Virus record (IMG/VR): IMGVR_UViG_3300046501_000132
Location: 32,001 to 96,000 of that record
Direction: 5' to 3' (one strand)
Origin: a virus
Length of the DNA: 64,000 nt
Positions 18,251 to 55,069 of the stretch are shown piece by piece. A program made the position numbers and the translations under genes. The number at the start of each line of letters is the position of its first letter. Within the stretch, counting starts at the first letter, position 1. The notes beneath the pieces are model-generated. The model made no database searches and was not told the DNA's origin. It saw only the letters and a list, made by a program, of their open reading frames with translations.

Positions 18251-18346
18251 TGGCCCACATCCTAGGATTCGAACCTAGATTTAACCCAATCGGAATCGAA
18301 CCGATTAGCCTCCGCGCGCTGTGAGGCTGCCGTCCAGCTGATGTGG
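18251..18346 (-). ncRNA. tRNA-like RNA with two T-loop hairpins and no canonical anticodon arm
   Basis: Acceptor CCACATC/GATGTGG-GCCA; AATCGG-TTCGATT-CCGATT and CTAGG-TTCGAAT-CCTAG. Confidence 0.75.
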
Positions 18347-19347: not shown

Positions 19348-19905
19348 TTACAACGGGAATTTCTTCCCAGCGCTAATCAACGCTTTCTTCTTGATCTTGA
19401 AGCTCGTACTTTCTTGTCCACCAAACATCTTACAGTTGGCGATTATCTCAGCCCAAGCAGTAAAATATAAGGATGGAGCTAGAGGATGTTTCCAAAGATT
19501 AACAATATCATCACCCTTCAGTGTATGGAACTCCATATCCTTTAAGATGAGTATTGCCGTCTCAAGATCGTCCGGCCAGATCGTAAAGTATTGAGCACAA
19601 GAATACTTAGCGTGATCAGGAAAACGTTGCTTACCATCTTCTCCCACGACTCTAGCTAGATGCTTACCGCAATCGTGGTAAATATGATACTGCTTCAAAT
19701 CCTTAATGTAATGTTTAGTCCGTTCATATATCTCTCCGATCTACGGAGGAAGATCAATGATTTGCTCACCACCCTCAAGCTGATTAATCAACTCTTGGTA
19801 CGCCTCGTGAACCGCGTTTCCGTGATCCAACATATTCATCGTTTCGAACTGGTAGCAATTACTCATCGCTTCTTTCAGTTCGTATAGAGATTTAGCTAGC
19901 TGCAT
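19348..19905 (-). CDS. HD-domain phosphohydrolase, 185 aa if the in-frame TAG at 19741-19743 is read through
   Basis: MQLAK...LDHGNAV...IDLPP-TAG-IGEIYERTKHYIKDLKQYHIYHDCGK...FPDHA; the two tracked ORFs share a frame. Confidence 0.8.
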
Positions 19906-20239
19906 TTGGACCCTTCCAGAGTTTATACTTACTGAACGTCTTACGTTGCTCAGCCGTGATCGGTTCAGTTGCGAAAGAAGTGAATCCATAATCCCAATCA
20001 GGCTCATAGAAGGCTTCACATCGAATCCCACGATCAATAGTACGTTTCATTGCTACCTCCAACTTTTCCTTATTAGGAATTTGGAGCATAATCAACGAGG
20101 AAGGTTCATTTGACTTTCTATCAAATGAATGACCGGCTTCTAGCGCGGCGTGACAAGCCTGAACGATCTGCTGTTCAATCGGCAAGTCGGTACGGATGAA
20201 AACATACACCCAAGTCTTTTCAGCGTTCTACGATTTCAT
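19892..20239 (-). CDS. PTH2-like peptidyl-tRNA hydrolase, 115 aa if the in-frame TAG at 20228-20230 is read through
   Basis: ATG AAA TCG TAG AAC GCT GAA AAG ACT TGG GTG TAT...; YVFIRTDL...VQACHAALE PTH2 motif. Confidence 0.78.
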
Positions 20240-20279
20240 TTCTATCTCACTTTGTTTAACTACATTAAAACCAAATATA

Positions 20280-20355
20280 TGGTGGCTCGTACCGGGATCG
20301 AACCGGTGACCAGCGGATTTAGAATCCACCGCTCTACCAACTGAGCTAACGAGCC
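20280..20355 (-). tRNA. Amber suppressor tRNA (anticodon CUA)
   Basis: Canonical 76-nt cloverleaf: GGCTCGT/ACGAGCC-A-CCA; GTGGA-TT-CTA-AA-TCCGC. Confidence 0.93.
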
Positions 20356-22745: not shown

Positions 22746-22794
22746 GATCTCCATTTGGTGTTATACCTAATGTCGCATCATAATCTCCTAATCT

Positions 22795-51959: not shown

Positions 51960-52349
51960 GTGGCTACTAACTACACATATAGAGATTTTGATCTCAGCTT
52001 CAGCACCCACCCTGTGACGGGTGATCTGGTAATGAAGACTGATATTTCCGCAATCATTCAGTCGGTAAAGAATTTGGTGGTGACCTCGGCGGGAGAAATC
52101 ATCTGGGAACCGACGATGGGTGGTGGGGTTGGACGTCTATTATTCGAACCCAACGACGCGATGATGCGGATGCAGTTGTATGATAAGATCGAAACAACTA
52201 TCAAACGATTTGAACCCAGGGTGGAACTTGTAGCTCTGGATATTCAGCGATTTGAAAATGGGTATGGTATCTATATCAATATTCAATTCTACGCTTTAAA
52301 TTATCCAGACGTTATTTCTGAAACAATTCCTGTAAAGAGGATTCGATAA
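51960..52349 (+). CDS. gp25: Baseplate wedge subunit gp25
   Basis: YRDFDLSF..HPVTGD, SVKNLV, LLFEP, FEPRV. Confidence 0.93.
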   Translation: MATNYTYRDFDLSFSTHPVTGDLVMKTDISAIIQSVKNLVVTSAGEIIWEPTMGGGVGRLLFEPNDAMMRMQLYDKIETTIKRFEPRVELVALDIQRFENGYGIYINIQFYALNYPDVISETIPVKRIR

Positions 52350-55069
52350 TGCAATTCAAACAAGGCCATTTGGTCAAAATCCTAGGTTGCTCTTCAGCAA
52401 CTGAAGCGAAGTGGCTAGACGCGATCAACGCGGCTTGCGCGAAGTACCAGATCAACACAAAGTTGCGCCTAGCAGCTTTTATTGCTCAAGTAGGACATGA
52501 GTCTGGTCGTCTAGCGGCTGTGACCGAAAACTTGAACTACTCTGCTGCGGGACTACAGGCCACGTGGCCTAACCGATTCGATGCTGCTAAGGCAGCGGCT
52601 TGCGCACGTAACCCAGAGAAGATTGCTAACGTAGTTTATAGCAACCGTATGGGCAACGGGTCTGAGGCTTCTGGCGAAGGCTGGAAGTATCGCGGTCGTG
52701 GATTGATCCAGTGCACTGGTAAGTCTAACTATCAAGCATTCTCTCAGTCGGCTGGCGTAGATGCAGTTAGCAATCCTGACGCTCTAGCCCAGCCCGCACT
52801 AGCGGCTTTGAGTGCTGGTTGGTTCTGGGATTCTAAAGGCTTGAACAGTTACGCAGATCGCAGCGACTTCCTGACTATCACCAAGCGTATTAACGGTGGT
52901 ACGAACGGTCAAGATGACCGTGAGATGCTTTACAAGAAGGCTATCATTGTTCTATCGGATGAACCAACGCCCACTGACGAGGAAGCAGCAAAAAAAGCTG
53001 ATCCGACACCGGACACGACAGCACCGGTGTCGGAGGAAAAGACCCCCGCTGCACAAAACACCTCTATTGTTGAACCTAAAGCCGCTTCTGGAGATACCGC
53101 AAAATATCCCTGGAACTTCGTTACTGAGTCGCGTTCTGGCCATTATACAGAAGTTGACGACACGCCGGGTAGCGAACGGTTGAATATGACCCACCGTACC
53201 GGGTCATACTGGGAAATCGGCCCAACTGGAACATTCACTTATAAAGCGGTTCTGGACGCATATAAGTTGACCAAGGGCGATTCCTACGATTACACCGGCG
53301 GAAACTATACACAACAAGTACAAGGACAGTCCTACCGTCAGTCTTCTGGGGATATGATCTTCAAGACCGGTGGTAACTATTTCGTCAATGCCTCTAAGGT
53401 TCAAATGAATACGGGTATGTTGTCGGTGTCGGGAGAAATCAACTCCCCATCGATCAACTCTCCCATGTTTGGAGGAATGTCTGGTGGAGCGTCTTTTGGT
53501 AATCTAGTGGCCAGGGAATCTTTGGTTGCCTATGATCTGGTGGATGGCGGCGCACCGATGGTTGGGGGTGCAATCGGCTTCACAGGCGGATCAGATGGAA
53601 GTGGTAGTGCGGATAACCTACTATCCAACAAACTATCTAAGCAGTCTCCGAACGGAACCCCGTGGGTAACTAATGGCGTTGCTCCAGGGTCTAGCAGCTC
53701 ATCTAACGGTGGATCTGGTAATGGTAGTGGTTCGGGTAGCTCTGGGTCAGGATCAGGCTCTAGCAGCTCATCTACGCTGGGAGGCAACGGCAACGATTAT
53801 GATGTTCCTCCGGAAGCCGGAAGTTCATTCAAGGTATCTGATCTGGTGAAGGTTGGGGTGGGTGCTGCTGCGGCTGCCGGTGCGGTTATGGGGATCATTC
53901 AGGCAACTGACCCTGATCCTGTGGTTGCTAACTCTATGGCATCAGCCGTAGGAAATTTGAACAGCAACACTTCAGCGAAAGATAGTCAGACACCTGTGTT
54001 CTTGAAGCATGTATCGTTCGATAAGCCTACGTTGTTCAGCCAGTCTACGGTTATTGATACTCCTGATCCTGCGTTGTATATGAATAACTATCACACCATC
54101 GTTGATAATGACGGTATTGGTCGTTTGTATATCAGTAATGGGCAAGAATGGGTTCTAGCGGCTGAAAATAAGGAACTCAAAGACTATATTGATGAGAAGA
54201 CCGATGGTCTTGCTGAGGATATCATCAACAACGCTGCGGCTCAAACCCAAGCGATTCTTGATGAAGCTGAGGCTAGACAACAAGCCATTGAGGCTGGTCT
54301 ATTGGCTGAAGCGACTGCACGTGGTGCGGCTGTAACGGCGGAAGCCACTGCCCGTCAAAACGAAGATGAATCATTGTCTAATCGTATTTTGACTCTGACA
54401 GCTTCTGTGGATGATAATGCTGCGGCGATTCAAGAGGAACAATCGGCAAGGGCAGATGCCATTACGGCGGAAGCGAATGCTAGATTGACTCTAGCAGCTA
54501 AAGTTGATGACAACACAGCGTCCATCATCACGGAGCAGACAACAAGAGCGAATGCTGATGAGGCGATCTCAACTCTATTGACTGAAGTCACGTCAACAAC
54601 CAATGGTAACACAGCGGCTATCTCGTCTGAAATTACCGCTCGTACAACGGCTGACTCTGCGTTGTCGAGTCGGATTGATGCGGTTGTTGCTACGGCTGGG
54701 GATAATACAGCGGCGATCATCACTGAACAAAATGCTCGGATTACAGATACCAATAATATCAAGGCCCAATGGGCCATCAAGACGAATGTTAATGGTCACG
54801 TATCTGGTATTGCTTTGGTGAACGATCTGATCAACGGCAATCCAACATCTTCGTTCACGGTATCAGCGGATGTGTTTAAGTTGGTTAAACCAGGCGCCCC
54901 AACTACGGTGGCGACTCCGTTTAGTGTTGATTCTAGTGGTAATGCAGTTTTTGGTGGGATGCTTACAGTCAAGTCTGCCGCGTCTGGACAGAGAACTGAG
55001 ATCGACAATAGTAGCATTCGAGTCTATGACTCTGCTGGTACTTTGCGAGTTAGATTGGGAGTTTGGTGA
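52349..55069 (+). CDS. Chimeric tail spike: GH19 lysozyme + gp5 C-terminal region + coiled coil + J-like tip
   Basis: AQVGHES, YRGRGLIQ, TKRINGG; ESRSGHYTEVDDTPGSERL..HRTGS; EATAR repeats; NGHVSGI...RVRLGVW. Confidence 0.85.
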   Translation: MQFKQGHLVKILGCSSATEAKWLDAINAACAKYQINTKLRLAAFIAQVGHESGRLAAVTENLNYSAAGLQATWPNRFDAAKAAACARNPEKIANVVYSNRMGNGSEASGEGWKYRGRGLIQCTGKSNYQAFSQSAGVDAVSNPDALAQPALAALSAGWFWDSKGLNSYADRSDFLTITKRINGGTNGQDDREMLYKKAIIVLSDEPTPTDEEAAKKADPTPDTTAPVSEEKTPAAQNTSIVEPKAASGDTAKYPWNFVTESRSGHYTEVDDTPGSERLNMTHRTGSYWEIGPTGTFTYKAVLDAYKLTKGDSYDYTGGNYTQQVQGQSYRQSSGDMIFKTGGNYFVNASKVQMNTGMLSVSGEINSPSINSPMFGGMSGGASFGNLVARESLVAYDLVDGGAPMVGGAIGFTGGSDGSGSADNLLSNKLSKQSPNGTPWVTNGVAPGSSSSSNGGSGNGSGSGSSGSGSGSSSSSTLGGNGNDYDVPPEAGSSFKVSDLVKVGVGAAAAAGAVMGIIQATDPDPVVANSMASAVGNLNSNTSAKDSQTPVFLKHVSFDKPTLFSQSTVIDTPDPALYMNNYHTIVDNDGIGRLYISNGQEWVLAAENKELKDYIDEKTDGLAEDIINNAAAQTQAILDEAEARQQAIEAGLLAEATARGAAVTAEATARQNEDESLSNRILTLTASVDDNAAAIQEEQSARADAITAEANARLTLAAKVDDNTASIITEQTTRANADEAISTLLTEVTSTTNGNTAAISSEITARTTADSALSSRIDAVVATAGDNTAAIITEQNARITDTNNIKAQWAIKTNVNGHVSGIALVNDLINGNPTSSFTVSADVFKLVKPGAPTTVATPFSVDSSGNAVFGGMLTVKSAASGQRTEIDNSSIRVYDSAGTLRVRLGVW

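What the first reader, a model, noticed from the sequence alone, without database searches (positions are those of the whole stretch)
19892..20239. PTH2-like gene starts with an M-K-S-amber minigene
Seen: ATG AAA TCG TAG is in frame with ...NAEKTWVYVFIRTDL. The GTG start used by the ORF track (20209) has no evident RBS; the ATG has only a weak one (GTGAG). Known: very short minigenes (lambda bar type) provoke peptidyl-tRNA drop-off, the substrate of Pth. Inference: termination gives a tripeptide/drop-off signal while read-through gives the hydrolase, which could be an autoregulatory loop.
Basis: partly seen in the sequence, partly recalled or inferred. Interest (0 to 1): 0.8.

Follow-up and report, generated by a model that had tools for sequence, protein, structure and literature searches.

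The report
Suppressor-tRNA-gated phage Pth2-like gene
A 170-kb phage with the normal genetic code encodes a UAG-reading tRNA 40 bases upstream of a small tRNA-hydrolase-like gene that has UAG as its 4th codon. Most relatives keep this early stop, and where it is UGA the neighbouring tRNA reads UGA, so the enzyme is probably made only when that tRNA overrides the stop.

Summary
On the minus strand, ATG-AAA-TCG-TAG (20239-20228) is in frame with a 111-codon PTH2-fold body. In one genome this pattern is not beyond chance. Its conservation is: 42 of 58 non-redundant homologues in viral contigs, and eight cultured or GenBank phages, have start codon, 1-12 codons and TAG directly before the first beta-strand, mostly with no other usable start.

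A canonical tRNA(CUA) lies 40 nt upstream on the same strand. 31 of the 42 TAG loci have a tRNA(CUA) within 10 kb. Two independent TGA variants each have a tRNA(UCA) instead.

The next gene (HD-like, 19348-19866) also carries an in-frame TAG, at codon 42. In phage XacN1 the HD-like and PTH2-like domains are fused behind ATG-AAG-TAG.

Best reading (about 0.8): a translational gate opened by the phage's own suppressor tRNA. Its purpose is not known; timing or feedback on the suppressor are guesses. The lambda-bar-type drop-off loop is unsupported.

I found no paper that describes this. The scan has already reported the same cassette on other DNA (49 notes, at least 37 genomes), so it is new to the literature I could search, not to this scan.

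The parts
20280..20355 (-). Amber-suppressor tRNA, anticodon CUA, class I, A73, encoded CCA, tRNA-Lys-like body
   Evidence: ARAGORN finds it. It scores 69.2 bits against Rfam tRNA, above its neighbours at about 55. Its best E. coli match is tRNA-Lys, 79-80% over the full length. It is the only suppressor tRNA in the 170-kb genome.
20240..20279 (-). 40-nt spacer between the tRNA 3' end and the ATG, holding a weak Shine-Dalgarno-like GTGAGA
   Evidence: Read from the sequence. No promoter-like or terminator-like site was found between the tRNA and the gene, so co-transcription is likely. That is an inference.
20231..20239 (-). Leader ATG-AAA-TCG (M-K-S)
   Evidence: The equivalent leaders in relatives have a good Shine-Dalgarno sequence (AGAGGA, GAGGA, AAGGAG) but no conserved peptide.
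20228..20230 (-). In-frame amber codon, codon 4, followed by A
   Evidence: TAG is conserved in 42 of 58 non-redundant relatives. The next base across those 42 loci is A in 22, G in 17, C in 3 and T in none.
19892..20227 (-). PTH2-fold body (111 codons plus TAA)
   Evidence: Pfam PTH2 matches 12 of 15 members, best E 3e-11; the window's own copy scores 21.2 bits, below the 23-bit cut-off. AlphaFold2 gives pLDDT 92.1. Foldseek top matches are Bit1 1q7s, MJ0051 2zv3, AF2095 3erj and Pth2 1xty, TM 0.67-0.77.
20207..20209 (-). GTG, the alternative start used by ORF callers, 5 residues before the conserved Arg
   Evidence: Relatives mostly have ATT, ATA, ATC, AAT or TAC at this position.
19348..19866 (-). 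Downstream HD-like gene, 172 codons when read through; ATG at 19866
   Evidence: The orthologues ME3_194 and Arash gp83c are uninterrupted. Invariant H, HD, H, D, H residues. AlphaFold2 pLDDT 92.9. The best fold match is tRNA nucleotidyltransferase 3wfo-3wfs, TMq about 0.6.
19741..19743 (-). Second in-frame amber codon (codon 42 of the HD-like gene, TAG-A)
   Evidence: L039 has a TAG at the same position. Other relatives have it elsewhere: CBB and fHe-Yen9-04 at codon 47, L042 at codon 4.

Best explanation
This is a translational gate. Ribosomes start at ATG 20239 and meet UAG as the fourth codon. They make the PTH2-fold protein only if the phage's own tRNA(CUA), encoded 40 nt upstream and probably on the same transcript, decodes that UAG before release factor 1 acts.

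The next gene, an HD-type hydrolase related to a tRNA nucleotidyltransferase domain, needs the same event at its codon 42. Both putative tRNA-3'-end enzymes are therefore tied to the amount of charged suppressor tRNA.

Shown here: the anatomy, its conservation, the linkage to the tRNA, and the covariation of stop codon with anticodon.

Inferred:
- Suppression actually occurs.
- The residue inserted is Lys or Gln.
- The very early position and the purine after TAG favour the tRNA over RF1 and avoid truncated protein.
- The purpose is timing or dosage coupling, or feedback on the suppressor.
For: 1. Conservation. 42 of 58 non-redundant relatives have a start codon, 1-12 codons and TAG directly before beta-strand 1, with no canonical in-frame start at least 6 codons before the conserved Arg. 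AlphaFold2 places strand 1 at residues 10-16. Cultured phages show the same design: CBB and GAP32 MAQ*, fHe-Yen9-04 MSH*, BF MTH*, ME3 MT*, RsoM2USA and Arash ML*.
2. Translation in this frame. The residues just after TAG (N/I-x-K-T-W) are conserved as protein, with synonymous changes.
3. Linkage to the tRNA. A tRNA(CUA) lies within 10 kb, always on the same strand, in 31 of the 42 TAG loci. It is also present near the gene in all eight named phages.
4. Covariation. The two early-TGA loci, L053 and L088, carry tRNA(UCA) and no tRNA(CUA). On the protein tree they are nested separately inside TAG clades.
5. Context. The base after TAG in the 42 loci is A 22, G 17, C 3, T 0.
6. Standard code. The genome's long ORFs are intact, and reading TAG as sense gives no TAG-specific gain. 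TAG ends only 3-7 of about 190 likely genes.
7. The tRNA is canonical: 69.2 bits against Rfam tRNA.
8. A second amber gene lies in the same operon.
9. In XacN1 the HD-like and PTH2-like domains are fused behind a Shine-Dalgarno sequence plus ATG-AAG-TAG.
Against: - There are no expression, proteomic or ribosome-profiling data, so read-through is inferred only from comparison.
- In this window GTG 20209 could start a protein that keeps most of strand 1. One relative may use a Met at that same position (MYTFIRKD in L067).
- 11 of the 42 TAG loci show no tRNA(CUA) within the DNA held. Some of those contigs are short, and in RsoM2USA the tRNA is 13 kb away.
- About 11 of the 58 relatives have an ordinary start, so the gate is not obligatory. 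Several of these still sit next to a tRNA(CUA), as do five more distant ones.
- L053 is ambiguous, because a GTG directly follows its TGA.
- The purpose of the gate is unknown.
Confidence: 0.8

Rival explanations
1. First reader's model. ATG-AAA-TCG-TAG is a lambda-bar-type minigene. Termination or drop-off there yields peptidyl-tRNA, the substrate of the hydrolase, and occasional read-through yields the hydrolase, which closes an autoregulatory loop.
For: Most leaders are very short, 2-3 codons. From my own knowledge, not tested here, that is the length range in which minigenes provoke drop-off. The product has the PTH2 fold.
Against: - Any stop codon would serve a drop-off minigene, yet the stop is TAG with tRNA(CUA) and TGA with tRNA(UCA).
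- Leaders reach 8-12 codons in some lineages.
- No step links the peptidyl-tRNA level to read-through.
- The second amber codon, at codon 42 of the HD-like gene, cannot be a minigene.
Confidence: 0.06
2. In this phage the protein starts at GTG 20209. The upstream ATG-AAA-TCG-TAG is a separate upstream mini-ORF, either neutral or a simple translational damper.
For: A GTG is in frame 5 residues before the conserved Arg. L042 has the same GTG. The Shine-Dalgarno sequence of the ATG is weak in this window.
Against: - Most relatives have no start codon there: ATT, ATA, ATC, AAT or TAC.
- The residues between TAG and GTG are conserved as protein.
- The GTG has no better ribosome-binding site.
- This model does not explain TAG-only conservation or the anticodon covariation.
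Confidence: 0.1
3. The TAG is a sequencing error, a recent nonsense mutation (pseudogene), or evidence of general TAG reassignment (code 15).
For: Annotators truncated or skipped the gene in CBB, GAP32, fHe-Yen9-04, BF and Arash.
Against: - The same codon is kept across proteins that have diverged to 35% identity.
- The body is intact and folds confidently.
- The genome's long ORFs are open under code 11, and reading TAG as sense gives no TAG-specific gain.
Confidence: 0.02

Closest known systems
Stop-codon-recoded phages with suppressor tRNAs (TAG read as Gln, code 15; crAss-like and Lak phages)
   Same: A phage-encoded tRNA(CUA) decodes in-frame UAG in phage genes. Expression of those genes would depend on the tRNA (PMC11210395, PMC10879173).
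   Different: This genome uses the standard code. Only one small operon carries in-frame TAGs, at codon 4 and codon 42. The target is a tRNA-related enzyme pair physically linked to the tRNA, not late structural or lysis genes.
prfB (release factor 2) autoregulation through an early in-frame UGA
   Same: An early in-frame stop in a translation-factor gene makes synthesis depend on the competition at that stop codon. This rests on my own knowledge of prfB and is offered as an analogy.
   Different: prfB escapes by a +1 frameshift, and its sensor is its own product. Here the frame is unchanged, and escape needs a dedicated suppressor tRNA. Feedback by the product is only a hypothesis.
Lambda bar minigenes and peptidyl-tRNA drop-off
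   Same: A very short ORF of 2-4 codons behind a Shine-Dalgarno sequence, in a phage, with a conceptual link to peptidyl-tRNA hydrolase.
   Different: The stop is in frame with a conserved 111-codon body. The stop type covaries with a neighbouring suppressor tRNA. Leader length varies up to about 12 codons.
Archaeal and eukaryotic peptidyl-tRNA hydrolase Pth2 (Pfam PF01981; 1xty, 2zv3, 3erj, Bit1 1q7s)
   Same: Same fold, TM 0.67-0.77. The V-R-x-D-L and Q-x-x-H-A motifs are shared, and an acidic residue (invariant E79) sits at the position of the Asp of the D-A-G-x-T motif.
   Different: Identity is 13-20%. The G-K-G-K loop is deleted. The window's copy scores below Pfam's cut-off. Activity and substrate are untested.

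Membership tests
Pth2 (PF01981) peptidyl-tRNA hydrolase | Pfam PF01981 match above the gathering score | tested here: inconclusive
   The window's protein scores 21.2-21.3 bits against a cut-off of 23, E 3e-4. 12 of 15 family members match, best E 3e-11.
Pth2 (PF01981) peptidyl-tRNA hydrolase | PTH2 alpha/beta fold | tested here: met
   AlphaFold2 pLDDT 92.1 and pTM 0.86. The 15 best Foldseek PDB matches are all Pth2 or Bit1 chains or PTH2-like proteins of unknown function, probability 0.99-1.0, TM 0.54-0.77.
Pth2 (PF01981) peptidyl-tRNA hydrolase | Catalytic residues: the Lys of the G-K-G-K loop and the Asp of D-A-G-x-T. I recall Lys18 and Asp86 of S. solfataricus Pth2 from memory and could not confirm them in the papers I read. 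| tested here: not met
   In the profile alignment to 2zv3 the family has a 2-residue deletion at G-K-G-K and no conserved Lys there. An invariant Glu (E79) aligns with the Asp.
Pth2 (PF01981) peptidyl-tRNA hydrolase | Hydrolysis of peptidyl-tRNA or N-acetyl-aminoacyl-tRNA | not testable with these tools
   Needs an enzyme assay or complementation of a pth(ts) strain.
Suppressor-tRNA-dependent (read-through) gene | An in-frame stop conserved between a real start and the conserved body, with no alternative start | tested here: met
   42 of 58 non-redundant relatives plus eight named phages. In this window itself a GTG alternative exists.
Suppressor-tRNA-dependent (read-through) gene | A cognate suppressor tRNA is encoded by the same genome, and the stop type covaries with its anticodon | tested here: met
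   tRNA(CUA) lies 40 nt upstream. 31 of 42 TAG loci have CUA, and 2 of 2 TGA loci have UCA, from two independent switches.
Suppressor-tRNA-dependent (read-through) gene | Full-length product demonstrated | not testable with these tools
   No proteomic or ribosome-profiling data were examined.
Lambda bar-type minigene | A 2-3 codon ORF whose effect does not depend on what follows the stop; any stop codon serves | tested here: not met
   The stop is in frame with a conserved body, it is TAG or TGA according to the neighbouring tRNA, and leaders run from 1 to 12 codons.
HD-domain phosphohydrolase (downstream gene) | H...HD...D metal-ligand motif, and Pfam PF01966 | tested here: inconclusive
   H15, H64-D65, H85, D110 and H114 are invariant. 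Pfam HD matches only ME3_194, at E 0.016. The best fold matches are 3wfo-3wfs, at E 6e-3.

The most novel reading that the evidence does not exclude
The cassette is a homeostat for nonsense suppression. The early UAG measures charged tRNA(CUA) against RF1, and the PTH2-like enzyme it releases, together with the HD enzyme, acts on the 3' end of that same tRNA by deacylating it or recycling its peptidyl form. Read-through of host and phage stop codons would then be held at a set level. This would be a tRNA-based analogue of prfB autoregulation, and it would explain why standard-code phages keep 'orphan' suppressor tRNAs. The gene stays linked to tRNA(CUA) even where the gate is absent, which fits an enzyme that works on this tRNA.
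Probability: 0.2. Interest if true: 0.9.

Novelty: new variant of a known kind. Interest (0 to 1): 0.75.

Why it matters
Many large phages that use the standard code carry suppressor tRNAs with no known target. The XacN1 authors looked for targets and found none (PMC5852040). This cassette supplies a conserved natural target, and in XacN1 itself an SD-ATG-AAG-TAG leader precedes an HD-PTH2 fusion gene.

It is also a natural gate of the kind built in synthetic biology, where a gene is read only when a given tRNA is present.

It exposes a systematic annotation error. The gene is truncated or missing in CBB, GAP32, fHe-Yen9-04, BF and Arash, and PHROG 34073 is built from the truncated form.

It is directly testable in cultured phages (CBB, GAP32, ME3, Arash).

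Tried and rejected
- General TAG recoding was rejected. ORF cover under code 11 is 0.86, against 0.90, 0.88 and 0.89 with TAG, TGA or TAA read as sense, so there is no TAG-specific gain. TAG junctions with coding potential on both sides are not in excess.
- Termination followed by reinitiation was rejected. Most relatives have no start codon after the TAG.
- A conserved arrest peptide was rejected. Leader residues vary: ML, MT, MS, MAQ, MKS, MTH and others.
- A single ancestry for the suppressor tRNAs is not supported. The 56 suppressor tRNAs are diverse class I tRNAs. The window's tRNA is 79% identical to the phage's own tRNA-Asp and 79-80% to E. coli tRNA-Lys, so the inserted residue stays open.
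- The search for related loci with the 15-sequence alignment failed because it had no conserved stretch. An 8-sequence alignment worked.
- The search for more TGA-type relatives gave only the two loci already known, plus distant members with a normal start.
- Promoter and terminator scans gave nothing above shuffled expectation.
- I could not confirm the Pth2 catalytic residues in the paper I read.
- Six literature searches found no description of the cassette. Subscription journals are not covered.

Full report
**Observation**

The gene lies on the minus strand. ATG 20239-20237, AAA, TCG and TAG 20230-20228 are in frame with N-A-E-K-T-W-V-Y-V-F-I-R-T-D-L and the rest of the body, down to TAA at 19894-19892. 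ORF callers start at the GTG at 20209. Neither start has a strong Shine-Dalgarno sequence.

Taken alone, the pattern is not remarkable. An ATG within four codons before a stop that is followed by at least 70 open codons occurs 37 times in the 170,684-bp genome, 12 of them with TAG.

ARAGORN finds 25 tRNA genes in the window. One has the anticodon CUA and lies at 20280-20355 on the same strand, 40 nt upstream of the ATG.
- It is a canonical cloverleaf: Rfam tRNA 69.2 bits, against about 55 for its neighbours.
- It has an encoded CCA and A73.
- Its closest E. coli relative is tRNA-Lys, 79-80% over the full length.
- It is the only suppressor tRNA in the genome.
- I found no promoter-like or terminator-like site between it and the gene.

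**The genome uses the standard code**
- Long ORFs of 500-900 codons are open under table 11.
- Reading TAG as sense gains no more ORF cover than reading TGA or TAA as sense.
- TAG junctions with coding potential on both sides are not in excess.
- TAG is rare as a terminator: 3-7 of about 190 likely genes.

**Conservation in named phages**

tblastn finds the protein in Rak2-like and other large phages, and the match begins upstream of the GTG. Each of these phages has a Shine-Dalgarno sequence, an ATG, one or two codons, and then TAG:

| Phage | Leader |
|---|---|
| CBB, GAP32 | MAQ* |
| fHe-Yen9-04 | MSH* |
| Serratia BF | MTH* |
| Acinetobacter ME3 | MT* |
| Ralstonia RsoM2USA | ML* |
| Salmonella Arash | ML* |
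| uncultured LR756511 | MTH* |

Annotators either truncated the gene (CBB_406, GAP32_397, ME3_195, Arash gp84c) or left it out (fHe-Yen9-04, BF). PHROG 34073 is a 77-residue profile of the truncated form. The residues right after TAG (N/I-x-K-T-W) are conserved as protein, with synonymous changes, and in these phages there is no in-frame start after the TAG.

**Survey of viral contigs**

An 8-sequence profile recovered 153 relatives in IMG/VR. The best 80 were fetched with 10-kb flanks. At 90% identity they reduce to 58.

| Class | Loci |
|---|---|
| Start codon, 1-12 codons, TAG directly before the conserved Y-x-F-x-R-x-D strand, no canonical start at least 6 codons before the Arg | 42 |
| Same design with TGA (L053, L088) | 2 |
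| Ordinary start | about 11 |
| Ambiguous (L044, L077, L115) | 3 |

- The base after TAG in the 42 loci is A in 22, G in 17, C in 3 and T in none.
- The leader peptide is not conserved.
- 31 of the 42 TAG loci hold a tRNA(CUA) within the flank, always on the gene's strand. None of them has only a UCA or UUA tRNA.
- Both TGA loci hold a tRNA(UCA) and no CUA.
- Among early-stop loci with a suppressor tRNA in the flank, the split is 31 TAG with CUA, 2 TGA with UCA, and none mismatched. By my hand calculation the exact probability of that split is 1 in 528.
- All eight named phages also carry a tRNA(CUA) near the gene. In ME3 it is 0.45 kb away. In CBB, GAP32, fHe-Yen9-04 and BF it is 3-4 kb away. 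In Arash it is 1 kb away and is annotated as tRNA-Phe. In RsoM2USA it is 13 kb away, and in LR756511 8 kb.

On a maximum-likelihood tree the early TAG is spread over the whole family. Ordinary starts are nested within TAG clades, which needs at least 2-4 changes. The two TGA cases are nested separately: L053 is sister to L052, and L088 is sister to L116. These are therefore two independent co-switches of stop codon and anticodon.

More distant relatives (L125-L129) have an ordinary ATG but still have a tRNA(CUA) 330-980 nt downstream of the point where the gene's frame opens, on the same strand. The link between the gene and the tRNA is therefore wider than the gate itself.

**The protein**
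- Pfam PTH2 matches 12 of 15 members, best E 3e-11. The window's copy scores just under the cut-off.
- AlphaFold2 on a 54-row alignment gives pLDDT 92.1, with strand 1 at residues 10-16 of the read-through protein.
- Foldseek returns Pth2 and Bit1 structures at the top, TM 0.67-0.77.
- In the profile alignment to MJ0051 (2zv3) the G-K-G-K loop is deleted, and an invariant Glu stands at the position of the Asp of D-A-G-x-T.
- The fold is PTH2, but the chemistry and the substrate are open.

**A second amber gene**

25 nt downstream of the PTH2-like stop, an ATG at 19866 opens a frame that reaches a TAG at 19743-19741 (codon 42, followed by A). The frame continues into the ORF that callers start at TTG 19698.
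- The orthologues ME3_194 and Arash gp83c are uninterrupted.
- CBB and fHe-Yen9-04 have GGA-TAG-GGC at codon 47. L039 has a TAG at the window's position. L042 has one at codon 4.
- The protein has invariant H, HD, H, D, H residues and a confident model.
- Its best, though weak, fold matches are the tRNA nucleotidyltransferase entries 3wfo-3wfs.
- In XacN1 this domain and the PTH2-like domain are one ORF. It is preceded by GAGGA, ATG-AAG-TAG-ACC, and the annotated start is an ATG four codons after the TAG.
- The XacN1 paper reported that no target of its CUA tRNAs could be found (PMC5852040).

**Mechanism**

The best-supported account is a gate. The PTH2-like and HD-like proteins are made only when the phage tRNA(CUA) decodes the in-frame UAGs.

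Comparison shows the anatomy, the conservation, the linkage and the covariation. Three points are inferred from established knowledge of nonsense suppression and minigenes:
- a purine after the stop favours suppression;
- a stop at codons 3-4 costs only a di- or tripeptide when it is not suppressed;
- termination on very short nascent chains is poor.

The purpose of the gate is unknown. Coupling in time or dose to tRNA expression is the modest reading. Feedback on the suppressor itself is the bolder one.

**Rivals**
- The lambda-bar drop-off loop does not explain why the stop type follows the anticodon, and it does not explain the codon-42 TAG.
- A GTG start is possible in this window only, and that codon is not conserved.
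- Error, pseudogene and recoding are excluded by the conservation and by the intact standard-code ORFs.

**Novelty**

Six searches of the paper library found nothing on such a cassette. The scan's own notebook holds 49 notes from at least 37 other genomes that describe the same design, and other readers flagged it in this genome too. These are unchecked AI notes. My survey was run independently before I read them, and it agrees. The finding is therefore apparently new to the searchable literature, but it is a repeat within this scan.

Noticed in passing
L044:9950-10040 (IMGVR_UViG_3300046457_000084): This is a 57%-identical relative on a 165-kb contig. It has AGGAG, then ATG AAA TCC CAA ... 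CAG TAG (codon 11), but the PTH2 body lies in the +1 frame relative to that ATG. No suppressor tRNA is present among the 20 tRNAs in the 20-kb stretch. It could be a frameshifted copy, an assembly error, or a different recoding.
   Followed up: partly
window 22761-22790, minus strand: A strong Shine-Dalgarno sequence (TAGGAG) precedes ATG ATG CGA CAT TAG GTA TAA. This is a 4-codon amber mini-ORF inside the tRNA cluster, backed by TAA two codons later. Another reader of this genome also flagged it.
   Followed up: partly
whole genome G000 (window = 32001-96000): TAG is strongly avoided as a terminator: 3-7 of about 190 likely genes, against TAA 85-116 and TGA 46-69. Where TAG is used, another in-frame stop mostly follows within 3-14 codons. 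This fits a genome adapted to carrying an amber suppressor.
   Followed up: partly
L037:21307-21381 (Salmonella phage Arash, OQ632216.1): The tRNA annotated as tRNA-Phe 1 kb downstream of the PTH2-like gene has the anticodon CTA according to ARAGORN. The 'peptidyl-tRNA hydrolase' CDS gp84c covers only the last 50 residues of the gene.
   Followed up: yes
L010:130-1003 (Xanthomonas phage XacN1 ORF364): The HD-like and PTH2-like domains are fused in one 283-codon frame behind GAGGA plus ATG AAG TAG ACC. The annotated start is an ATG four codons after the TAG.
   Followed up: partly
window 20231-20233; L042 and L053 leaders: Three lineages share TCG (Ser) as the codon directly before the early stop: TCG-TAG in the window and L042, TCG-TGA in L053. 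The phage encodes a tRNA-Ser(CGA) at 18251-18329. Whether the P-site tRNA matters is untested.
   Followed up: no
window 52349-55069: A 906-residue baseplate-hub/lysozyme-like protein is most similar (38-44% over its first 360 residues) to those of Ralstonia phage RSP15 and Delftia phage PhiW-14. This places the phage among distant T4-like myoviruses.
   Followed up: no
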